Below are positions 37,715 to 53,851 of a stretch of DNA of 64,000 bases, piece by piece. The translations under genes were made by a program, and so were the position numbers. Below the pieces are notes generated by a model. That model searched no databases. It worked only from the letters and a program-made list of their open reading frames with translations, and was not told the origin of the DNA. The stretch lies in NCBI GenBank assembly GCA_001244265.2, contig CDLV01000006.1, forward strand, positions 2,790,001 to 2,854,000, in the 5' to 3' direction. Numbering within the stretch: the first letter of the stretch is position 1; the number at the start of each line of letters is the position of its first letter. The DNA is from Microbotryum violaceum. Its lineage: Eukaryota.

Positions 37715-39080
37715 CTAGACACATCCATAGTTTTGCCACCTTTGTCTCCCCTTGCGCTGCGCTTTTGCTGCCTCCTTCTCCGCGATGGCGACGATCCGCC
37801 TCCTTCGTTCCCTATTCCACTGGCTCAAGCGCTCGTCCCAGAAGAAGGCGGCCGCGCTTTGGGCTTTGACACCCGACCTCCTACTCGCTTCAACTTTCGA
37901 GAACCCCATAAGCCAGGTACTGTAATATGTCACGAGCTGCAAGTCCGAATATCTGTAAGCGACCAGGCGTGACGCAGCGGCTTGGCTTTGCTGGCCGGGA
38001 TGAGAAGTAAAGATGCTCCGGGACGACGAAGGCTTGCCGGGCCAAATTTCGGGGGAGGAAGGCGCTGAAGGGTGTGATGCACTCGAATCTTCAGCAGTCA
38101 AATGGGAACATCGAGAATTGTTGTATCTTTGATCCCATTCTTGATCGAATACGTCTTGCGCAGCCTCAAATATCCGGCGTCGACGTCCTCTTGCTATTGA
38201 GTCGGCCTGTGCACTCCGAAGAAAGATTTAGTATCGCATTGGAAAGAAACAGGTCTTAGTGGTTTCGTAAGGCACACCAGGGGAATTTGGAGAAGTCTCG
38301 TGATACGGGAGATGCTTAATCCCGTTCTGCGTTGCATTGACCTACTTCCCCACCTCAGCTAAGGGTTTCTAAAGATCCGGCGCACGGACTGATCACGACT
38401 CACTTTTTGCTCTTCCCCAGCAGAAACATCGCCGCCACCCTGATCAATTTCTCCTTTTTGGTCCCCTCTTCTTGAATATGCGGTCTCGTGATCACTCGTG
38501 TGGACGGGACTTGGATATCCTCCATTTCTCCGGCCGACGGAAAGCTCTTGCTCGTGACGTCTTCGTATGAGTCACTGTCGGACGAGTCGTCCATTTCCGC
38601 AAGCTGCCGCGAGCACGACGAAATAAGCTCATCGTCATCGACCACTTCATCAAAGTGTTGGTCTTCGTGTTCGATAGGGTGGATCTTATGAGTCACGGCC
38701 TCTTCTTCAGATGTCACTTCTTCGGCCGACTTGGATTGCGCTCTTCGGTCGTTCTCCTTTCGTGATGGCCTGTCTGCGACGGTCCGCGCGTGATGCAGCG
38801 GCGCGCACTGATCAACGATGTCGCTCTCGCTCGAACAGAGGTCGATCCATTCGATAGGAACGCGCGACTTCTGCCTCGAAATGGAACCTGTGTTCAATGA
38901 GCCGTTGGACATGGGGGCGTGCAGATCCGTCGAAGATCGTGGGCGTGGTCGTTGAAGATGACCAGAGTTCGATAATGGCGTGGGAGGTAAATCACTCCTT
39001 TTTCCTGGGCCAGGTGCCGCTCGTACATGTTGGTGGGGGGTCTTGGGGAAGTAGGTCCTAGCCGAGTTCGTTGTTGGCAT
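37715..39080 (-). CDS. Hypothetical protein with two HTH-like motifs (paralogue A)
   Basis: Spliced KLIRVAAMFLLGKSKKSMQRRTGLSISRITRLL and YSDLQLVTYYSTWLMGFSKVEASRRSGV, homologous to paralogue B. Confidence 0.6.
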
Positions 39081-39828
39081 CGAGATGACGGGGACAGTGA
39101 AGGCGCGAGAGATCAACACTCAACATGTCAGGCGACGGCACGTCAGAGCCCCCCTTCGATCGGTGATCAGACCGCCCTGACCCCTCTTCTGACGGACAAC
39201 CCTCCTGTCTCAGCGCTCAGCCGCCAGCTACGGCGCTAACGGGCACCGTCAGCACGTGGAAATCGTCTCGCACGCTCACATGACTAAGTTACTCGAGGGT
39301 CTTCAGTTCAGGAAGGTCTTTCTCCGTTGTAATTTCGGTTTTTTGGTGTTGAAGAACCTAAATCTCGAGTGACCTGGTACAAGGGGACGTGCAGCAGCAC
39401 GTCCGGCACGTGCTTGACCCCTCTCTTAATTCGAAAGCTTTCCTATGCTTTCCTTTCCCCTTTCATCGGAAGACCTAGCACGGGCCTCTGGCTTTGTCTC
39501 GAAGTAGCAGTTTCCTCGAAGATGAGACAAACCTATACACCCGCACAAATCCCAAGGAAGCACTACTGTGCAGGCAGCCAGAGAAAGATCTGCTTTTTCT
39601 TGCCTGCTTCTAGCCCTAACCCCTCCAAAAAAAACCTACGTGAAACGCAGGAATTCTGCCAACGCACAACAAACAAAGGTTTATGGTACATCAACAAATT
39701 TGGAGCCCGGTGGGGAACTTATTCGGCTTTGACGGGTCAACTCGATCATTTCTGCAGAAATTCTCGGGAGCGTGAAAATCGTCAGTGGCCGAGCGTTTCA
39801 TGAACAGATCGGAAATGATTGCACAGTG

Positions 39829-41131
39829 TTACGGAAAACACACCTTTGTTTTTTCCCTCTGCTTCGTGTTCGCCACCTGCTTCTCGGCGATAGAGATGAC
39901 CCTTCTCCTTCGCTCGCGGATTGCTTGGGTCTGGGGTCCTTTTTCCCAAAAAGCACGGATCGCGCTTCGCTCGTTGACACCCGAATTCCTGCTCGCTTCG
40001 GTCTTGGACGCTCCCTTAAGCCACTGGACGTAGAACGTCACGAGTTGTTGTTCCGAGTACTTGAAATTCATGGACGACACGTAATTCGAAGGACGATAAT
40101 TCGCATCGGGTGTCGAAGGAGGACTCTGAGGTGGAAATTGTTCGGCAGATGATGAGGAAGTTGGGATGGGAACCGAGACCTTCGATTTGGTTACCGTGGT
40201 TGAAGTGAACGAGAAATTGTACTTGGTTTCCCATTCTCGATCGAAGACTTCTTGCGCAGCTTCAAGGATCCGGCGTCGACCTAATTGCTTTCCGGTGCTG
40301 GACTGAGATGCATAAAAAGGGTAATCCCCAGTGAATGAGCAACAAAGTGTGTGCGGAACCCACAGAGAGGCAGTATTACCTACAGGTTTATTATTGATGA
40401 ACTTCCTGATCTGGGAGAGGCTCAATCCCGTTCTGCGATGCATTGATCTACGAGAGCCTGAGTCAGCTTCAGTCGTCAAATATTCACACCAACGCCATCT
40501 TCACTCACTTCTTGCTCTCCCCCATTAAGAACATGACTGCGACCCTGATCAGACTCTGTTCCTTTCTGTCGATAGAGTCGAAGAAGGCCGTATCCATTTC
40601 CTCGATAGAAAACTCGCTCTCGCTCGAATCGTCATCGCACAAATCGTCATCGCTGGGCTCAACATCCACTCGCACCGGAGCTCGTTGTGGCCTCTCGGAG
40701 GGATTCGAGGATGCGACTGATGGCTGGTAATCGGAATCCTGTTCCTCGAACTCTTCAGCTTCCCCATCCACTGAATCAGATTCTTTGGCTTCGTCATTGA
40801 AAACATCATCATCCTCGACCAAGGTCAACGCCTTTGCCGATTGGTTGAGCTCCTTTCGTGACGTCAAATGTGAGGCGGCAGTCGGAATGATCACCATGAA
40901 TCCGCGACGTGTTCGGCCCGCGAAAGTGACTCCGTCCTTGGTGGTGTACGGGATGGCGAGGTGTGAAGCGGATGTGTGACTCGTCATTGTTGCTGAACCA
41001 CTCTTTGGCTTTGGTGGATGCCAGGCCAGCGCTGCAGGCTGCGGTGGGAGAGCCGACGGAGATTGACATTGATCAGCTTGGACAGTCGAGGACGATTCGG
41101 CCTTTTGCGTTGTGGCAACTGTATCTTCCAT
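39829..41131 (-). CDS. Hypothetical protein with two HTH-like motifs (paralogue B)
   Basis: Spliced SLIRVAVMFLMGESKKSMHRRTGLSLSQIRKFI and YSEQQLVTFYVQWLKGASKTEASRNSGV. The intron position matches paralogue A. Confidence 0.6.
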
Positions 41132-41583
41132 CTTCGTCTCGAGAGCTTGGGTGTTCGACTCCGATCCTAGTCTGTGTCACCGCGCTCGAAGAAGGTCAAA
41201 GTCAGAGGCCACAAGTCAAGCGCTGAGGTGGGGTGCGTTAAGTCCGACAGCGCGAGGGAGTCGTTAGGCGGTGCGCGAGCATCTCCCCGATTCTAAAGCT
41301 CTCCTATCAAAACTTTCTCACTAGTGCTCTTCTCGAGACTTCTCGCGCGCCTTCGACTCTTTTTCTTCTTCGTTTCCGCAATACCGCTGTTTTGCAATAT
41401 CGCTCTCAGTCGGAGATGAAAAAGAAACCTATTCAGATACATGACACAAGGGGAGCTGCTGTGCAAACCAGACACGAACAGATCTCTCCTCTCTCTCCCC
41501 TGTTTCCCTCCTTCCCAAACATGTCTCGTTCCTAAAAAACGCGGGAACCCGGAACACACGCGGCAGACGATGTTTTCTTCTTT

Positions 41584-44500
41584 TTACTTCGAAGCCTTGG
41601 CTTCGGCCATCGCGTTGAGGGCCGAGCCCGCTCGGTGCCAGCGGATCTGGTCGGCGTTAAAGGTGTGGGTCAACTCGATCGTCTCTGGAGTAAGGAATTT
41701 CGGAGATATGTGGATGTTAGCAAAGCTTCGCTATAGATTGAACAAGTACAATGAACACCAGAGACTGACCCGTCTTGCCATCCTTGTGCTTGAGCACCAT
41801 CTCGACTTTGGAGCCTTCAGCGAGGTCCTTAATGCCAATCAGGTCGACCTTGTCGTCGGGCTGAACCTTGTCGTAGTCGGCGGGGTTCTTGAAGTTCAAG
41901 GGGAGCATGCCTTGCTTCTTCAAGTTGGTCTCGTGGATACGGGCGAACGATCGCGTGATGACGGCTGCGCCACCGAGGAAACGGGGCTCGAGAGCGGCGT
42001 GCTCACGCGACGATCCCTCACCGTAGTTCTCGTCACCGATCACGACCCACGGCACACCGGCGTCGCGGTACTCGGCAGCGACCTTGGGCACAGGTCCCCA
42101 TTCACCGGTCAACAAGTTCTGGACCTTGTTGGCCTCACCGTTCGCGGCGTTGATGGCGCCGATCAAGCAGTTCTGCGAGATGTTCTCCAAGTGACCTCGG
42201 TACTTGAGCCAAGGGCCACCGGCCGAGATGTGATCGGTCGTGCATTTGCCGACAGCCTTGATCAGAACGGGCATGTCGGTCGGGTCCTCACCGTTCCACT
42301 TCTTGAAGGGCTTGAGGACCTGGAGACGGTCCGACGAGGGGCTGACGATGACGTTGACCGAGGCGCGGTCCGAGGGAGGGGCCTGGTAGGTGTCTTGTCC
42401 CGGGTCGTAGCCGCGAGGGGGGAGCTCCTTTCCAGTCGGGTCGGAAAACTTGAACTCCTTGCCATCGGCGCCCTTGAGCGAGTCGGTAAGAGGGTTGAAG
42501 GTCATAGAGCCGGCAAAGACCATGGCGGTAACGAGATCGGGGGAGGCGACGAAGGCGTGGGTGGCGGTGTTAGCGTCGTTACGACCGGTGAAGTTGCGGT
42601 TGTATGAGGTGATGATCGAGTTCTTGGTGCCCTTGGGGACGTCCTGTCGGTCCCATTGACCGATGCAGGGACCGCATGCGTTGGCGAGCACGAGACCTCC
42701 AGCGTCCTCGAGGACCTTCATCTGTCCGTCACGCTCGATCGTAGCGCGGATCTGCTCAGATCCGGGGGTGATCGTGAAACCGGCCTTGGCCTTGAGGCCA
42801 TGGTCGGCCGCCTCCTTGGCGATCGAGGCCGAACGGGACATGTCCTCGTACGAGGAGTTGGTGCAGGAGCCGATGAGACCGACCGAGAGCTTCTCGGGCC
42901 AGTCGTTGGCCTTGACGGCGGCGGCGAACTTGGACAGAGGGGTCGCAAGATCGGGGGTGTAGGGGCCGTTGATGTGGGGCTCGAGCTCGGAAAGGTTGAT
43001 CTCGATCACGCGGTCGTAGTCGGCACCGTTATCGGCACGGAGGTTGTGCTGGAAGGCCTCGGCGTACTTGCGGATCTCGGGTCGCTTCGTCGCGTCGAGG
43101 TAGTCGCCCATGCGCGAGTTGTAAGGGAACAGGGAGGTGGTCGCACCGATCTCGGCACCCATGTTGCAGATGGTGGCCATACCAGTGCACGACAACGAGT
43201 TGACACCCTCGCCGAAGTACTCGACGATGGCACCCGTTCCACCCTTGACGGTGAGGATACCGGCAACTTTGAGGATCACATCCTTGGGGGTCGTCCATCC
43301 GCTGATCTTGCCCGTCAATTTGACACCGATCGCCTTGGGGCACTTGAGTTCCCAAGGAAGGTCGGCAATGACGTCGACGGCATCAGCTCCTCCGACACCT
43401 ACGGCGATCATACCAAGACCACCGGCGTTGGGGGTGTGCGAGTCGGTACCGATCATCAAACCACCGGGGTATGCGTAGTTTTCGAGGATGATCTGGAGGG
43501 TGAGGGGGAGCCGTTCATTTAGTCGCAGTGCCAGAGCGGGTTCGCTGTAGACTAAGAGCAAGTAATGACTGACCTGGTGGATGATACCCGAGCCGGCCTT
43601 CCAGAAACCGATGCCGTACTTGGCGGTGCAAGTGGCGAGGAAGTCGTAGACCTCCTTGTTGATGTCGTTGGCGCGGGCTAAATCCTTGGTACCACCGACC
43701 TGGGCTTCGATTAAGTGATCGCAGTGGACGGTCGTGGGGACGGCGACGGTGGGCAAGCCGGCGGACATGAATTGAAGGAGAGCCATTTGGGCGGTAGCAT
43801 CTTGGCAAGCAACTCGCTGGAAGTGTACGGAAAAACGAGGCGGAGCGGGGTCAGCGCTGGTAAATCGACCGTGTCAAGCGTACAGCCTGGGCAAGGGCCA
43901 CTGATGCGGCTATGCTCGATTTGGAAACATAGCCAGAGAAAAGAACTTACGTCGGGTCGGAGCTTGATGTATGAAGCACCCCGTCGGACGTCGGCATCAT
44001 GAGGGTTGTCGAGATGGCCGTAGAGGACCTTCTCCGAAAGCGTGAGCTTGCGGTCGAGGCTGTAGCGTGGCGAGAAGTGTAGATAATGAGGTGCAGGTCA
44101 GTTCAATAGCTCTTGGACTGAGGCATGAAGATGAGGTCCCTGACGCGTGTATGTGTGGGTCGAGTACAGCATCTGGGTGGCCGAACTCGGGTGGTAAACA
44201 TGGCGGCGCTCCTACTGCACCCGGCGCCGCTTGCATGTTCACGCGTTCACGCGCGAATGGCGGCTGCAACTGCGGCGCGAGGCGAGGCGGAGCACGCCGC
44301 GAACACACCCGAGGCAGGCAGCGGAAGCGAGCGAGCTCACGGGCTGCCCACACCGGAACCGTGCTCCGCATTGCTCTCACGAATCAAAGCAAGACAAGAG
44401 ACACTCACCGTTGACGAACGACAGCGAGGTTATCCTCGATGCGCTGATAATTGATGTACTTGTCTTTCTCAAACAGGGACATGGCCACCTTGGTCGCGCC

Positions 44501-45692: not shown

Positions 45693-47113
45693 TTACAACT
45701 GCATCCCCACATCAATAATCGGATCCGCGTCCACATCCGCTCCTTTCGCCAATCCTTTCTCCTCCGCGATTGCCCTCGATCGGCCCATATGATACGCATG
45801 ACTATACGGATTCAGTTCGCGATCCTCCTCTTCATCGAGTTGGCCCTGTTGAATCTTGAGCATCTCCTCTTGTGCGTCGAGAAGCGGGTCATCGTCGTCG
45901 TCTTCTTCGTCCGGTTCGTCGTCGTCGTCTGAATCGGCGTGAGACCTGTGAGGAGCTTGCCACGCTGCACATCAGTCCACGGTGTATCATGAAGTTGTAC
46001 AGCATGAATTCTTTCTCACATGAAATTCGCAAAGGCTGCGCCTTGCCCCGCACCGCCTTTCATGAAGGCGCCCTTCAAGCGGTTGCCTACTTTCTGATTC
46101 CTCATCTCGTCCTTGCGCTTCGACTCTTGCAATCGACGTTCGGTCGCCAAACGTTCTCGAGTTGCGGCTTGTTCTTGTAAACGAAGTGATTCAGAGAGCG
46201 AGATGGAGCCGCATAGTGAAGAAGGTGGGGAGGAAGAGAGCTGTGGCGAACGAAAAGCGAGTCAGCACATTAGCTTGCAAGCGGTAGGAGCTGCGATGTG
46301 CTGACGTACCTCTGCACGTAGTGCCAATCTTCGTTTGACGGTGAGCGGACTAAATCCTATTACTGTCGGATGCGCAGGGGAAGAACTGGGATCGCCTACG
46401 CCTCCCGCTCCTATTCTCGGCTTGATGTCCTCCTCGGCCTTTGCGCCCGCCGCGCCGGTGACTTGGTCGTCGTCGATGTCAAGCAGGGTATGGTCGTCAT
46501 GGTCCTCATTGCCTTCGAGTCGGGTCTTTTGTAAATCTTCTCGGATGCGGTTGATGTCTTGTATTTCCTTCAGTCGAGCTTCGAGTCGGTCTTGTTGCTG
46601 GCGAATCTTGGAGTCACTGCTTCCGGGCAAGAGCGACATCGTCGATCTGCACGCGGTGAGCTTGTGGAGTTAGCCAAAGCTTCCCCAAAGAAATGCAAGC
46701 CTAAACTCTCAGTCTCACTTTGACTCCAACAAACTCGCATTGACCCGCAGCATCTCGGCCAATTCATGCTCGAGTAGATCGGACAGGTCCTTTTCCTTGC
46801 CCTTGTGCGATACCGAAACGATCCCGCCGGCTTGCTGATGCTTCTTGGGCACGAAGGGGGACTTGTGTTCGGCTCGCTTGAGGCGCGCGTGCAGCTTGAG
46901 TTGTTGTTGGCGCGCTGAAGCAGCGAGACGTGCTTCGAGGGTCGTAGGGGAGGTTGCTGTGGCTGGGATGGTCGAGGTGGATGCTGAGAGAGAAGGGGAG
47001 GGAGAGGGGGACGGCGAGAGGGACGACATGGGCAGGTCCGAGCTCGAGTCGATTGTCGAGGGTGGTACAACTTCATGTCGGGAGTACGGGCGTGGTAGGC
47101 GTAAGGTGGACAT
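45693..47113 (-). CDS. Hypothetical 4-exon protein, candidate Gdown1/POLR2M (GRINL1A) homologue
   Basis: Three GT-AG introns give a continuous frame. Motifs are DLSDLLEHELAEMLRVNASLL..MSLLPGSSDSKIRQQQDRL, ISLSESLRLQEQ and an acidic tail. Confidence 0.55.
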
Positions 47114-47625
47114 GTTCTAGGCTGGGTACGAGTTGAGGTCGAGGGTGGGCTGGTGTGAGGAGTGGAAGAGACGATGACGAAACAAGGCGCGCCAGGCGGG
47201 CGGCGGCAGTCCCGTTTTCAGCCCCAGGCGGACAGCGCGCGCCACTCGTGACCGTCAAGTCACGTGCAGTTTGGGCTTCCGGCATTGCAGAATCGACAGG
47301 ACTCAAATGGGTGCTGGTCACAGATGAACCGCACCACTACCACTTTCTTTTTAGATCGAATGCTCCGCTTTGAAACTAAATTGGATCAAGGTGTGACCTA
47401 TAGTCGACCACCTGTTTTACTAATATCAGCCGCAGCCGCTCTCGGCTCGTATGTCACGTGACCGCCGCCGCCGTTCGAGTCACATGGCGCCGTTCCGCGC
47501 CGTTCGCGAGTGAAGACGTCCTCGCAAATCGTGACTGCCGACCGGTGCACTCCCTCTCTCTCGCCTCAGGCCACATATAGCTTGTCAGCCGCTTTTCTGC
47601 ACTTGACAGCGTCCATGCGACCAGC

Positions 47626-50519
47626 ATGACTACCTCAACCACCCCCAGGCTTCAGAATGGACCTTCAGTTACGCGAACTGTCCCGTCCCCCGCTCTCGCT
47701 GGCCAGGGCCACGTCGACTTCGCCGAGAGTGGTGGGGCAGCACAGCCACGAACAACGACGTCGAGCTCGGCTGGCGAGCGCGAACAAGAAGTTGCCCAGT
47801 CCGCAGCAACAGCAGCACAATGGCTACACGCCTCCACTTCACAGTTATCCGATCAAACACACGTCGCTTCGACTTCGAGAGTAGCTCCCCAGGACGCTCC
47901 CGATGACCTTCCTACGTACGCCCAGATCGAAAAGGCCGAACCGAGTAATCCGAGATTTGGGCGCTGGGCTGGATGGTCAGTTCCAAATATTACGGAAACA
48001 GATTTTGGGTGATTCATGCTCATTTTCGAAGTGCTCGAGCGTTGGCAGGATCGAGAAGCGAACGAGGGAGCGAAGTCAGGATCGGATGCTCAGCACCCAG
48101 AAGAGCTGGGGATCCCAGATCGGAAATGCCGACGAGTCGCACCGGCATCATACCTTCAATCCAAGCCCTGATACCACTACGAGAGCTAGCGCAGATCAAT
48201 CGACTATGCGACGCAATCCGACTCAATTACCTGTACGAGCGCACAGCAGACATTCGTGGGCACCTACCACCCCCTCCTCACCGATACGTTCGGTTTCGCT
48301 CAGCGGTGCACCGGCTCATTCCTTGACCCCATGCTCGGCCATCCAATCACTGGGATCTCGATTCACGCAACAGTTTGGAGAACCTCCCACGTGCTCGGTA
48401 TCATTGCGCAATATCATCGTCGCTGCTTCGGGAGCTCGTGCGACCGATGAGAGTGCGAGGCTCCTATTGGTCGGTGCGACGTCGGGACTTTGGCTCGTTG
48501 ATCTTGCTTCGCCGCGCAATGAAGGGCAGATGGAAGTTTTTCCTATGTGGGATGGTATGGGGATCGTCCAAATGGAGCTGTTTGATCCGAATGTTCAGCA
48601 AGAGTCGGGGGTGCTCTTGGCGCTTGTCAGGAGACCGACGGGTGGGGAGCTCGAGTTGAGGATGTGGAGTCTTACGAGTTTGATCAACCTTGTTCGATGG
48701 AGGCTCACAAATACGGTGAGCCCCAATATAAAAGGCCTGTTTGTTGGAAATGTTTGGGCTCATGCATCTTCTTGCTCCTCGTTGCATCCAGGCTTCGACC
48801 AAACTCTCTCTGGTTGCACAGACCGTCTCGTCTCCGACGCAATCAACCTACAACGAGAAGCGTCGATCACGCATAGTCTTCAAAGACCTCTTCTTGAACA
48901 AGAATGCCGGATTCGATCGCAATGGAGCGAGCGAGGTCGCGTCCACGAACGTTGCTGCGCCTATCCGAGCGCCAGATGACGATTTCTCGTCTGCTGGCTC
49001 ACGGCCGAATGCTTCTCCGTCGCTCGACACGCCTTCTTCCCAGTCACAGCTCCTCGCTTTACCACTGGAATGGGCAAATGCGTCTTTGGTATTGCCGATC
49101 CCCAAAAGTGGGGGCAGCTTATCTTTTTTTAAGCTGTGCCAGGTCCCGGTCTTGACCGCGTCGTCCTCGTCACCTCCGTGCAAACCTCGCATCTGCTTGT
49201 ACCTCATCATTGCTACTTCGAAATCCATCTTCATCCTCAATTCAGCTCCTCCTTCCTCTTCGAGCGGTTCGAGCCGCAAGTGGACCGCCTGCAGGGAGTT
49301 TTATTCTCCGGCGACGCCTCGCTTCGTCGACCTCGTCAAGACAAACTCCTTCCTCCCATCGTTCAGAGCGGGCTTCCCCACCGGGACTTTGCCACCTAGA
49401 TCTGCTCGGATGGTCGAAGATGACCTCTCTCTTCTCCTCGGAATGTCTTCCAATATCGTTCTCATTCGACTTGTCGACTCATCCGTCCACGAAATCACCA
49501 TCCCCATCATTCGAACTCGAATCCACAGCCGTCGATCCTCTTTCAGCGTCTCATACGATTCCTTGGGACAAGCTTCGTCGACGCTCAAAATGGGTAGATC
49601 GGTTTCGTTGCAGAGGAAAGCACGCGCGGGAGTTGAGAGAGCGGCTTCGATGTTGATGAATTATGGGAAACCATCGTCTTCAATGATACTGAGGAATTCG
49701 ATTCCGGCGGGGTTGTCGAGGGACGAGGCGAGGACTTTGGCCACTGGGGTGAAAGTTGATGAGGTGGGAGCAGCGCGGTTTGGGGAGGGATTGGGGAGGG
49801 GAGGTGACGACGGTTGGGTGGGGTATACTCCTGTGGAAGGGGAAGATCGAGCAGAGCAAGCACAGCTTTTCACAAGGGGTAGAGTGACGTACCTCGTTAC
49901 TGCTCGCAAAAGCCCTGGATCGGCGCTATCAAGTCCTCAACCCGATCTCGCTCCTATGCCGGCAACGGTTCAGGCCGGCGGCGAGGCGACTTGTGCGACC
50001 ATGAACGTGCTTCATACTTTCGTATGGCCCCAAATCGTTAGGCACGTCACTATTTCGTACATCCCTGCCCCGACTTCAGGGTCAACACGGGCAGCTGAGG
50101 GACGCCACCTCGTCCTGCTCGGCTTTTCAGCAACTGGCGTGCACGCACAAGAGGGGCACCTCTGCTTACCCAGAATCGCGCATTACCCTTCGGAAGATGA
50201 AATTTCCCGTCCAGTTTGGACGCCCGTCAGTAGTGCTGCGGACATCCTGGGTACGGAGGGTGAAGTCGAAGCTGAAGCGACGCTCGATTTCGGAAGGGAC
50301 GTTATCTACCTTGGATCTCGACGGAGCGCGGCTGCCCCGAGCAGTAGGGTGGATGGTCGGCCCAGTGAAGAAGGTGCTTCTTGGTGGGGTAATTCGTCGA
50401 TCCGCGCCAGCAATGTAGGTGGGACGAAGTCGAGGTTAGCCTGCTCGGAGGCAGAGAAGGCGGGGTCTTTTTTTGCTGTTCAGGGGGTCGGCGATTGGAG
50501 TTTGAAAGTCGTCGAGTGA
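47626..50519 (+). CDS. Hypothetical multi-exon protein, possibly CNH/beta-propeller-like
   Basis: Long ORFs joined by GT-AG introns, with beta-rich segments LLLVGATSGLWLVD, MWDGMGIVQME, LYLIIATSKSIFIL. Confidence 0.5.
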
Positions 50520-51124: not shown

Positions 51125-53851
51125 ATGTCTGCTGAACTTTCCCACAAGACTATTGTCGGTCAGTCGCGTATATCATGGAGTATGATGCTTTGGATCACAT
51201 AATCAATATCGTCTTGCTTATCATTAGATGGCTGGTTCCGTGAGATCTCGGACGAGCAATGGCCTGGTACGTCGTGGACACTGCTGTTCAACTATGCTCC
51301 CCGAATGCACAGCGACTAATAATGCGACTGGGTTTCTGATACCTTCTTGCAGGTCAGGTATGTTGCCATGCAGGCTCTCCGCTCATTTAACACGTTCATC
51401 ACTGTTAGTTCCTGGCAATCGATCTGCTCCCGACCGTGCTCATTTGGCTGATACTTTCTTTAATTCATGAATCTACAGAACTTGTTTCATCTTCTCCTTC
51501 AGGCGATGACACTCCGCGTCAAGAAGATCCTGCACGTCGAGCAATCGCTCTACCAGGATGTGCTAGTCTTCGAGTCGACCGACCACGGCAACGTGCTCGT
51601 CCTCGACGGCGCGATTCAATGCGTCGAGCGCGACGAGTTTTCGTACCAAGAGATGATCGCCCACTTGCCCCTCGCCTCGCACCCCAACCCGCAGAACGTC
51701 CTCGTCATCGGAGGTGGTGACGGTGGTGTCTTGCGCGAGGTGCTCAAGCACCCCAGCGTCACCTCGGCGACCCTCTGCGACATCGACGAGGCCGTCCCCC
51801 GTGTGTCGAAAAAGTACTTGCCCCACATGGCCGCCGGCTTCAATGACCCTCGCGTCACCGTCCACATTGGTGATGGCTTCAAGTGGCTCGACACCCACAA
51901 GGGCGAGTTCGACGTCATCATCACCGATTCGTCCGACCCGGTCGGCCCCGCCAACTCGCTCTTCCAGAAGCCTTACTTCCAATTGCTCAGAGAGGCACTT
52001 AAGCCAGGAGGATCGATCTCGACCCAGGGCGAATGCATCTGGCTCCACTTGCCCTTGATCGACGACCTTATGAGTATGACCCGCACCTTGTTCCCTGTCG
52101 CCGAGTTTGCTTACACGAGCATCCCGACCTACCCCTCGGGCACGATCGGCTTCGTCGTCTGCACCCTCGACGAGAACCGCGATTTGCGCACCCCGCTTCG
52201 CGATATTGAGAACACGCGCTACTGGTCCAAGGCCGTACACAAGCAGGCTTTCACCCTCCCGACTTTCGCTCAAAAGGTCGCCGACAAGTCGAAGACGAAG
52301 AAGGCCGTTACTACTGGCTCGTCATCGGCCAAGTTGTCTTCGCCCAAGAAGGTCTTGCTCCTTGGCTCTGGCTTCGTCGCCGCCCCCGCCGCCGAGTACA
52401 TCTTGCGCCGCCCCGAGAATTCGTTGACGATCGCTTGCCGCAACGTCGAGACCGCCAAGGCGCTCGCCAGTGAGCTCTCGCGCGAGGCTCAGGCCATCTC
52501 GGTGGACGTCGCGGACGAGGCTTCGCTCGACGCGGCCGTCAAGGAGCACGACCTGGTCATCTCGTTGATCCCTTACACGTACCACACGGCCGTGATCAAG
52601 TCGGCTATCAAGTTCAAAAAGAACGTCGTCACGACCTCGTACGTCTCGGACGCGATGAAGGCGCTCGAGGCCGAGGCGATCGAGGCTGGCATCGTCGTCA
52701 TGAACGAGATCGGCGTCGATCCCGGAGTCGACCACGTTTGGGCGATCGACATGTTCGACCGCGTCAAGCAAGACGGAGGCAAGATCAAGTCCTTCATCTC
52801 GTACTGCGGTGGTCTGCCCGCGCCTGAATCGGCCGACAACCCGTTGGGCTACAAGTTCTCGTGGTCCTCGCGCGGCGTCCTGCTCGCGTTGCTCAACTCG
52901 GCCCGTCTCTACTCCAAGGGCGAGCTCGTCGAAGTCGATGGCAAGGAGTTGATGAAGCACGCGCAACCTTACTTCATCTCCCCCGCGTTCGCGTTCGTCG
53001 CGTACCCGAACCGTGACTCGACTTCGTTCCGCGAGAAGTACGACATCCCCGATGCCGAGACCGTTATCCGCGGTACGCTACGTTACCAAGGGTTCCCGGC
53101 CTTCATCAAGGCGCTCGTCGACATCAAATTCCTCAACGAGAGCCCCGTGGAGTACCTCGCCAAGGGATCGACTCCCCTTGCTTGGAACGAGGTTACGGCC
53201 AAGGCGCTTGGTACGAGCGACAAGTCCGAGAAGGCCTTGGTCGAGAAGATCAAGTCGTTGACGACTTTCCCCAACCAAGCTGAGGAGGAGCGTATTGTGT
53301 CTGGCTTGAGGTGGATCGGCCTCTTTGGAGAGGAAAAGGTCACGCCCCGCGGCAACTTGTTGGACACGTTGTGCGCAACGCTCGAGGCCAAGATGCAGTA
53401 CCAGAAGGGCGAGCGTGATATGGTCATGTTGCAGCACAAGTTCGAGATTGAGAACAAGGACGGATCGAGGGTGAGTTTCCGATGGTGGGACACTGTACTG
53501 AAAGATGTGCTTGGCTGACTATTTCTCGTCGCTGCATCTAATCTTGGTAGGAAACCCGCACGTCGACTTTGCTCGATTTCGGTGCGCCCGTCGGCTCGGG
53601 CGGTTACTCGTCCATGGCCAAGTTGGTTGGTGTGCCCTGCGGTGTCGCGACGCAGCTCGTGCTCGACGGCGTCATCAACAAGCCCGGAATTCTCGCACCT
53701 TGTAAGTCACACTCGCCATGCAAAGACATGAAATGCGAAACTGATCTTTGTTGGAGTTTTCGTGTGGATTGCAGATACTCGGGATATCGTTGACCCTCTT
53801 TTGGTCGAGTTGCGCAAGGAGGGCATCGATATGGTTGAGAAGACGCTTTGA
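51125..53851 (+). CDS. SPE3-LYS9: Chimeric spermidine synthase-saccharopine dehydrogenase (saccharopine reductase)
   Basis: [41 protein letters not shown], then [47 protein letters not shown] in one frame. Confidence 0.96.

What the first reader, a model, noticed from the sequence alone, without database searches (positions are those of the whole stretch)
45693..47113. Candidate fungal Gdown1 (POLR2M/GRINL1A), a Pol II regulator usually regarded as metazoan
Seen: the spliced protein has DLSDLLEHELAEMLRVNASLL-x-MSLLPGSSDSKIRQQQDRLEARL, a variable linker, ISLSESLRLQEQAA...ERRL and an acidic tail. From memory, Gdown1 has the same order: a helix leading into an LPDKG-K-I motif, a C-terminal SIEESLALQ helix and an acidic end. 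The LPDKG motif is only partly matched here (LPGSSD). Inference: a divergent orthologue, which would imply Gdown1-type Pol II control or assembly predates animals.
Basis: inference. Interest (0 to 1): 0.7.

Follow-up and report, generated by a model that had tools for sequence, protein, structure and literature searches.

The report
Basidiomycete relative of Pol II regulator Gdown1
A spliced gene of an anther-smut fungus encodes a member of a conserved basidiomycete protein family whose closest match among solved structures is Gdown1, an RNA polymerase II-binding regulator that papers call animal-only, though the match is modest and binding is untested.

Summary
The gene is real: four exons, 401 aa, minus strand, all three introns spliced in contigs of a relative. 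It is from Microbotryum and belongs to a family conserved across Microbotryomycetes. Profiles of the family rank human GRINL1A/Gdown1 first among 177,635 PDB sequences; E fell from 0.44 to 0.0026 over four profiles. The ungapped match covers the RPB10-binding region, with the same three-helix layout predicted. ESM Atlas neighbours include two GCOM2-bearing clusters (leads only). Against: Pfam GCOM2 hit 0 of 56 proteins; LPDKG is LPGGD (LPGSSD here); R30/R33 equivalents are lost in Microbotryum; the C-terminal motif alone did not retrieve Gdown1; no external-binding region was matched; no bridging sequences were obtained. The Rhodotorula toruloides orthologue is expressed and non-essential. Verdict: probable divergent Gdown1 homologue (about 0.8), not a strict family member. 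The scan noted Gdown1-like genes before in four other fungal genomes; this adds Basidiomycota and a tractable yeast.

The parts
46719..47113 (-). Exon 1 (ATG at 47113): Ser/Pro-rich N-terminus, conserved KSPF block, first helix of the Gdown1-like domain
46647..46718 (-). Intron 1, 72 nt, GT-AG, phase 2 in codon K132
   Evidence: skipped in contigs of X2-X4; four unnamed exon-1 ORFs of relatives end at the matching residue
46310..46646 (-). Exon 2: short helix, LPGSSD loop, long helix, variable acidic linker, SP..KRR block
46241..46309 (-). Intron 2, 69 nt, GT-AG, phase 0
46020..46240 (-). Exon 3: SL.ES..LQ motif and long helix
45946..46019 (-). Intron 3, 74 nt, GT-AG, phase 2
45693..45945 (-). 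Exon 4: acidic tract, C-terminal conserved block, stop codon
46538..46792 (-). Residues 108-168 (across intron 1): three-helix domain that aligns without gaps, at family level, to human Gdown1 residues 14-70+, the RPB10-binding region
   Evidence: profile match; helices, pLDDT 87-97 per block in the P0003 model; definition of the region
46613..46630 (-). LPGSSD (138-143): position of the LPDKG motif; the family has LPGGD, Microbotryum a one-residue insertion
   Evidence: L 28/29, P 29/29, G 29/29, G 29/29, D 28/29 in non-Microbotryum rows with a residue
46841..46888 (-). Residues 76-91: family-conserved AR..R...KSPF.PK block; not aligned to human Gdown1
   Evidence: absent from the GRINL1A alignments
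46325..46351 (-). Residues 231-239: Ser-Pro followed by a basic patch, 19-34 residues ahead of the second motif across the family; candidate kinase site or import signal (inference)
46169..46204 (-). Residues 257-268: motif collinear with human Gdown1 304-315 (protrusion-binding region), 7 of 12 identical by my count; below significance
   Evidence: not retrieved alone
45888..45935 (-). Residues 322-337: acidic tract, at the place where the human protein ends in an acidic stretch
45771..45815 (-). Residues 362-376: LNP...AY..G..RA block, the best conserved part of the fungal family, with no counterpart aligned in human Gdown1
   Evidence: (block mean conservation 0.89)

Best explanation
The gene encodes the Microbotryum member of a Microbotryomycetes family that descends from the same ancestor as animal Gdown1 (POLR2M). 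It most likely works as a largely disordered, multi-patch binder on the outside of RNA polymerase II: the three-helix domain (108-168) docks on Rpb10/Rpb3 and the SL.ES..LQ helix (257-) on the Rpb2 protrusion, shielding newly assembled or idle Pol II from TFIIF, TFIIB and termination or elongation factors. Shown here: gene structure, family conservation, the profile match, predicted helix layout. Read from published tables: the Rhodotorula orthologue is expressed and dispensable. Inferred from the human structures: every binding and functional step. I put homology at about 0.8 and Pol II binding, given homology, at about 0.8.
For: Human GRINL1A (28jc_M) is the top hit of three of four full-length family profiles among 177,635 PDB sequences: E 0.037 (A3), 0.0041 (A4), 0.0026 (A5, next hit 0.091); A2 ranked it 11th of 12 rows at 0.44. 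The match is ungapped, starts at human residue 14 each time and spans the RPB10-binding region 19-73. By my count, 17 of 56 positions (human 15-70) are identical in the window protein. A second stretch pairs in the same order with human 297-366. AlphaFold2 gives helices 84-99, 101-106 and 111-142 of P0003 with the Leu-Pro between the second and third, as described for the human region. L44 is kept (28 of 29 rows), and R30 and R33 are Arg in 22 and 17 of 31 non-Microbotryum rows. A different method, ESM features, lists a Mucoromycota cluster with GCOM2 in 11% of members (0.80) and an arthropod GCOM2 cluster (58%; 0.79) among the best three named clusters; both are under 0.9 and so are leads. 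R. toruloides has separate genes annotated as RPAP1, RPAP2, GPN1 and TTF2.
Against: Best E is 0.0026, not below 0.001, and single-sequence phmmer of P0001 did not list Gdown1. Pfam GCOM2 matched 0 of 56 proteins and exon ORFs and 0 of 25 motif rows. A profile of the second motif alone did not list GRINL1A at E up to 10; in the full profiles that stretch scored only 2.6-5.0 bits. LPDKG, invariant in animals but for Xenopus LPDRG, keeps only Leu-Pro. In the window protein R30 and R33 pair with V124 and S127, and L303 with S256. The external-binding region (human 224-255) appears in none of the three GRINL1A alignments shown. The family's best conserved block has no human counterpart. All named homologues are Microbotryomycetes, so no chain of intermediates was built. 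The R. toruloides orthologue is listed 'Not Essential', while Gdown1 is described as essential or important for growth and development; viable HeLa knockouts exist.
Confidence: 0.72

Rival explanations
1. Only the three-helix Leu-Pro module is shared with Gdown1 (as TTF2 shares the LPDKG region). The protein is a separate fungal factor that carries an Rpb10-docking module, and the rest, including the conserved N- and C-terminal blocks, does something else.
For: Only the N-terminal domain reaches a useful score; the second motif fails alone; TTF2 shows that the motif occurs in an unrelated protein; two conserved blocks have no human counterpart.
Against: The second motif and the acidic stretch fall in the same order as in Gdown1 in three profile alignments, 7 of 12 identical in the window protein; length and disorder resemble Gdown1; there is no helicase domain, contigs span the four exons as one unit, and R. 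toruloides has a separate SNF2-family gene assigned to TTF2.
Confidence: 0.13
2. Chance likeness of amphipathic helices: an unrelated Microbotryomycetes protein with a common helical hairpin and coiled coils.
For: The domain's predicted fold is a common arrangement, matched by uL29, exonuclease VII small subunit and others at Z 7-8; unrelated helical proteins reach E 0.027-0.09 in the same profile searches; Atlas scores are under 0.9, which shuffled proteins reach (0.8 or more) a third of the time; no Pfam GCOM2 hit.
Confidence: 0.1
3. True Gdown1 descendant that has lost or changed its Pol II role in Microbotryum, or in the whole class.
For: DKG replaced by GGD in the family and GSSD here; R30/R33 equivalents lost in Microbotryum; no external-binding region matched; orthologue non-essential; strongest conservation in a block that animals lack.
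Against: The hydrophobic pattern, the Leu-Pro and the second motif are kept across the class. Residues 120-159 are identical in P0001, P0002 and P0003, and of 38 codons touched by the 40 listed differences (of 69) in a relative's contig, 23 are silent.
Confidence: 0.05

Closest known systems
Human Gdown1 / POLR2M / GRINL1A (368 aa; PDB chains 28jc_M, 9t5h; Pfam PF15328 GCOM2)
   Same: Three-helix N-terminal domain with Leu-Pro between helices 2 and 3, aligned without gaps at family level; then a long variable linker, an S[IL].ES..LQ helix and an acidic stretch in the same order; similar length; mostly disordered.
   Different: LPGGD/LPGSSD for LPDKG; no match to the external-binding region; linker between the two motifs 84-139 residues in 27 fungal rows against about 260 in human; extra conserved blocks before the domain (KSPF) and after the acidic stretch (LNP..AY..GW); about 100 residues precede the domain; no Pfam GCOM2 hit; export and anchoring signals not shown.
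TTF2 (Lodestar-type SNF2 termination factor), LPDKG region
   Same: Shares with Gdown1 the motif whose position the fungal LPGGD occupies, and competes for the same Pol II site.
   Different: No helicase domain in this family; R. toruloides has a separate gene (8679) automatically assigned to TTF2. No TTF2 sequence was compared here.
Unnamed Mucoromycota cluster in the ESM Atlas with GCOM2 on 11% of 82 members; early-fungal Gdown1-like genes noted by this scan
   Same: Fungal, similar language-model features (0.80); suggests that databases already tag some early-diverging fungal proteins as GCOM2.
   Different: No sequences were available, so relation to this family is untested; the Microbotryomycetes proteins carry no such label (some are mis-named 'DNA mismatch repair protein').

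Membership tests
Gdown1 / POLR2M / GRINL1A | Sequence-profile match to the N-terminal RPB10-binding region (human 19-73) | tested here: met
   Top hit, ungapped, E 0.0041 and 0.0026 among 177,635 sequences; passes 0.01, not 0.001; family profile, not the single protein
Gdown1 / POLR2M / GRINL1A | LPDKG pentapeptide | tested here: not met
   Family LPGGD, window LPGSSD; only Leu-Pro kept
Gdown1 / POLR2M / GRINL1A | Pfam PF15328 GCOM2 above threshold | tested here: not met
   0 of 56 proteins and exon ORFs, 0 of 25 motif rows; HMMER's filters hide most matches weaker than about 0.1
Gdown1 / POLR2M / GRINL1A | Three helices with the motif between helices 2 and 3 | tested here: met
   AlphaFold2 model of P0003 against the description in PMC13443923 section 7; the arrangement is common
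Gdown1 / POLR2M / GRINL1A | Structural superposition on a solved Gdown1 chain | tested here: inconclusive
   Fold searches returned generic helical hairpins; whether a modelled Gdown1 chain is in those libraries is not known
Gdown1 / POLR2M / GRINL1A | Interface residues R30, R33, L44 | tested here: inconclusive
   Family: R 22/31, R 17/31, L 28/29; window protein: V124, S127, L138
Gdown1 / POLR2M / GRINL1A | External-binding region (human 224-255) | tested here: not met
   No stretch over these residues in the three GRINL1A alignments shown
Gdown1 / POLR2M / GRINL1A | Protrusion-binding region (human 290-344; L303, L304) | tested here: inconclusive
   Collinear stretch of 2.6-5.0 bits; L304 pairs with M/L/I in 26 of 26 rows, L303 not kept; motif-only profile did not list GRINL1A
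Gdown1 / POLR2M / GRINL1A | Stable binding to Pol II, competition with TFIIF and TTF2 | not testable with these tools
   Needs co-purification and in vitro transcription
Gdown1 / POLR2M / GRINL1A | Cytoplasmic retention by export signals and anchoring signal; mitotic S270 phosphorylation | not testable with these tools
   A pattern scan found two loose export-like strings and nine SP sites, which is no test
TTF2 / Lodestar | SNF2 helicase domains | tested here: not met
   No such Pfam hit; contigs of 1279-1419 nt carry the four exons as a unit

The most novel reading that the evidence does not exclude
Gdown1-type shielding of Pol II is ancient eukaryotic machinery, older than the animal-fungal split and perhaps than opisthokonts (the best named Atlas cluster was a Pfam-less Euglenozoa cluster, 0.82), kept in Basidiomycota in a remodelled form (LPGGD loop, no external-binding region, new terminal blocks) and hidden by divergence; a Gdown1-versus-TTF2 contest at Rpb10 would then operate in fungi and be open to yeast genetics in R. 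toruloides.
Probability: 0.3. Interest if true: 0.78.

Novelty: new variant of a known kind. Interest (0 to 1): 0.58.

Why it matters
Papers of 2022 and 2026 call Gdown1 metazoan-restricted or metazoan-specific, and its role (assembly chaperone, mitotic or stress repressor) is still described as unclear. A basidiomycete homologue would move its origin before the animal-fungal split and show it survived into Dikarya. It would also give a haploid yeast in which the gene (RTO4 16757) is expressed and dispensable, so the assembly-versus-repression question could be tested by deletion, tagging and genetic interaction with RPAP2, GPN1 and the TTF2-like gene. Natural change of the 'invariant' LPDKG motif would show which contacts matter. 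The surprise is tempered: Pfam already tags some Mucoromycota proteins as GCOM2, and this scan has flagged similar genes in four other fungi.

Tried and rejected
No whole genome is held for the window. No holder on record as RNA was listed; splicing evidence comes from contigs whose RNA status is a guess. Word-based homologue searches from single Microbotryum queries found only three Microbotryum proteins. Single-sequence PDB search did not list Gdown1. Pfam gave only weak unrelated hits. Atlas structure searches were uninformative (TM under 0.3). Fold searches gave no match at E up to 0.001 and only common helical hairpins; no Gdown1 chain was listed. Complex prediction of P0001 104-176 with an unnamed fungal Rpb10 (L028) and zinc: no answer, alignments not used, controls not folded; it says nothing either way. 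To get that Rpb10, 118 loci were fetched, of which 3 had the first 63 residues uninterrupted and 8 were aligned. A second-motif-only profile did not retrieve Gdown1; this is also listed as evidence against. A locus search of viral contigs with A4 could not run for lack of a conserved stretch. I recall, without any call to confirm it, that the first intron of human POLR2M lies in codon 38 in phase 2, which would coincide with intron 1 here (K132, phase 2); searches did not give exon boundaries, so I give it no weight. Nine paper searches showed no title or abstract reporting a fungal Gdown1; most subscription papers are outside the library. Fitness scores for 16757 were not found: the relevant supplements are cut or too large. 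The database label 'DNA mismatch repair protein' on some R. toruloides members was rejected: no Pfam support.

Full report
THE GENE. The finding lies on the minus strand. Splice-site scanning gave four exons (47113-46719, 46646-46310, 46240-46020, 45945-45693), three GT-AG introns of 72, 69 and 74 nt and a 401-residue product. Four runs were laid on the region; contigs of three (X2-X4, one study, a related organism mostly 90-95% alike) skip exactly these introns, while X1 gave four short pieces without joints. The nearest proteins are from Microbotryum silenes-dioicae (99% over exon 2), M. saponariae and M. intermedium. P0001 and P0002 lack model residues 246-266 and P0003 retains intron 2, so the public models are mis-spliced at the second motif. 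Neighbours are aconitase, two genes without Pfam hits and a spermidine synthase-saccharopine dehydrogenase fusion; they say nothing about function.

THE FAMILY. phmmer of P0003 over 1.84 billion representatives gave 17 hits and a profile search gave 45. Every named one is a Microbotryum, Rhodotorula, Sporobolomyces, Rhodosporidiobolus, Pseudohyphozyma, Phenoliferia or 'Microbotryomycetes sp.' protein (the class of these genera is my knowledge); ten others looked up carry no name. Five blocks are conserved in fixed order: KSPF; GK.RDL...LPGGD.RLR.QQ.RI; SP..KRR; SL.ES..LQ; and LNP..AY..GW (26 of 28 rows of A4 used for the block means). A profile of the 27 non-Microbotryum rows of A4 scores the window model at 217 bits. 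AlphaFold2 on P0003 predicts isolated helices in a disordered chain (pTM 0.32), confident over residues 81-140: helices 84-99, 101-106, 111-142.

THE LINK TO GDOWN1. Single-sequence search of the PDB did not list Gdown1. Four full-length profiles did: A2 (19 rows, several mis-annotated) E 0.44, 11th of 12 rows; A3 (14) E 0.037, first; A4 (28) E 0.0041, first, next 0.027; A5 (35) E 0.0026, first, next 0.091. These four share most rows and are not independent. Each match begins at human residue 14 and, where shown, has no gaps. The cryo-EM paper defines residues 19-73 as three helices with LPDKG, bound to RPB10 and RPB3, with R30, R33 and L44 in the interface, and two further regions, 224-255 and 290-344 (PMC13443923, section 7; the same three interfaces in PMC13486763, section 7). 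By my count, 17 of 56 positions are identical between human 15-70 and the window protein. A second stretch pairs the SL.ES..LQ helix and acidic tract with human 297-366, 7 of 12 identical at its core. By a different method, the ESM Atlas ranked two Basidiomycota clusters and then a Mucoromycota cluster with GCOM2 on 11% of members; among named clusters it gave a Pfam-less Euglenozoa cluster (0.82), the same Mucoromycota cluster (0.80) and an arthropod GCOM2 cluster (0.79). All three are below the Atlas's 0.9 bar.

RESULTS AGAINST. The best E-value passes 0.01 but not 0.001. Pfam GCOM2 matched none of 56 proteins and exon ORFs. A 39-position profile of the second motif alone listed four unrelated chains and not GRINL1A at E up to 10, so that motif is suggestive only. 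LPDKG is identical in all animals compared except Xenopus, is needed for tight binding and is shared with TTF2 (PMC4007455, passages); here only Leu-Pro survives, followed by GGD in the family and GSSD in Microbotryum. R30 and R33 are Arg in 22 and 17 of 31 family rows but Val and Ser in the window protein; L303 is not kept. The external-binding region was never aligned. The family's most conserved block lies beyond the end of the human alignment. No intermediate sequence was obtained, so there is no tree and no reciprocal search beyond Pfam. The domain's predicted shape is common; uL29, which shares it, appears in none of the four profile searches.

PUBLISHED DATA ON AN ORTHOLOGUE. The cluster of P0022 holds R. 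toruloides NP11 RHTO_05619, which aligns to P0003 at E 9e-23 pairwise. A supplement of PMC7873862 gives its best match as RTO4 16757, 'Not Essential', without yeast or human orthologue or any annotation; it has transcript values of 4.3-5.8 in all 13 conditions and low non-zero protein values in 4 of 11 (units not seen). Essentiality calls in this organism derive from T-DNA insertion density and are provisional (PMC5922974, passages; PMC7873862, passages). The same table lists RPAP1 and GPN1 (essential), RPAP2 and a SNF2 gene assigned to TTF2 (not essential), and no row with the words NELF or SLC7A6OS. Fitness tables that might bear on function were cut or too large.

HOW IT PROBABLY WORKS. By analogy with the human structures (inference), residues 108-168 dock on Rpb10/Rpb3 and the helix from 257 on the Rpb2 protrusion, tethered by a shorter linker than in animals; this would block TFIIF and TFIIB and occupy the site used by TTF2, keeping new or idle Pol II inactive. 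The near-invariant Ser-Pro plus basic patch 19-34 residues ahead of the second motif may be a kinase site like human S270, which lies 35 residues before S305, or an import signal; this is speculation. The KSPF and C-terminal blocks may replace the missing external-binding and anchoring elements or bind another partner.

WHAT IS KNOWN. Gdown1 is called metazoan-specific in PMC13443923 (passages) and metazoan-restricted in PMC8887472 (passages); 'fung' does not occur in the main text of PMC13443923, PMC13486763, PMC9728996 or PMC4007455 nor in the readable supplements of the first two. PMC8656111 was seen as passages. Nine searches, seen as listings with abstract openings, showed no report of a fungal homologue; closed literature and database annotations are not covered. 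Earlier notes of this scan describe Gdown1-like genes in a chytrid, Dimargaris, Basidiobolus and one unconfirmed fungus (unchecked, not evidence); none was found for basidiomycetes or by sequence.

VERDICT. Observation confirmed. The protein is probably a divergent Gdown1 homologue (about 0.8) that probably binds Pol II. Because LPDKG, the Pfam threshold and the external-binding region were tested and not met, I do not file it as a member of the family as defined, but as a new variant. Interest 0.58.

Noticed in passing
window 51464-53518 (+): One open frame carries spermidine synthase and saccharopine dehydrogenase domains; I recall this fusion as a known basidiomycete trait.
   Followed up: partly
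window 37715-39119 and 39829-41176 (-): Two tandem look-alike genes, each with an acidic exon ending in a similar LIRVA.MFL.G.SKK string and a later basic exon; no Pfam hit.
   Followed up: partly
window 47581-50519 (+): Divergently oriented gene about 470 bases from the start codon; two long frames without Pfam hit.
   Followed up: partly
window 41717-43873 (-): Aconitase, the next gene downstream.
   Followed up: yes
window 46169-46240 (-); P0001, P0002, P0003: All three public Microbotryum models are mis-spliced at intron 2, two of them losing the second motif.
   Followed up: yes
window 46647-46718: Intron 1 position appears shared across the family (four unnamed ORFs end at the matching residue) and may coincide with the first intron of human POLR2M (recalled, unverified).
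   Followed up: partly
ESM Atlas: The best named-cluster neighbour was a 210-aa Euglenozoa cluster without Pfam family (0.82, 57 members): a lead for Gdown1-like proteins outside opisthokonts.
   Followed up: no
P0020, P0063, P0065: Some R. toruloides members are labelled 'DNA mismatch repair protein' in databases; P0020 was scanned and has no supporting Pfam domain.
   Followed up: partly
L040:6-227 (+): A fungal-type RPB10 frame without introns over its whole length, whereas most of the 118 loci show introns: transcript-derived contig or retrocopy.
   Followed up: no
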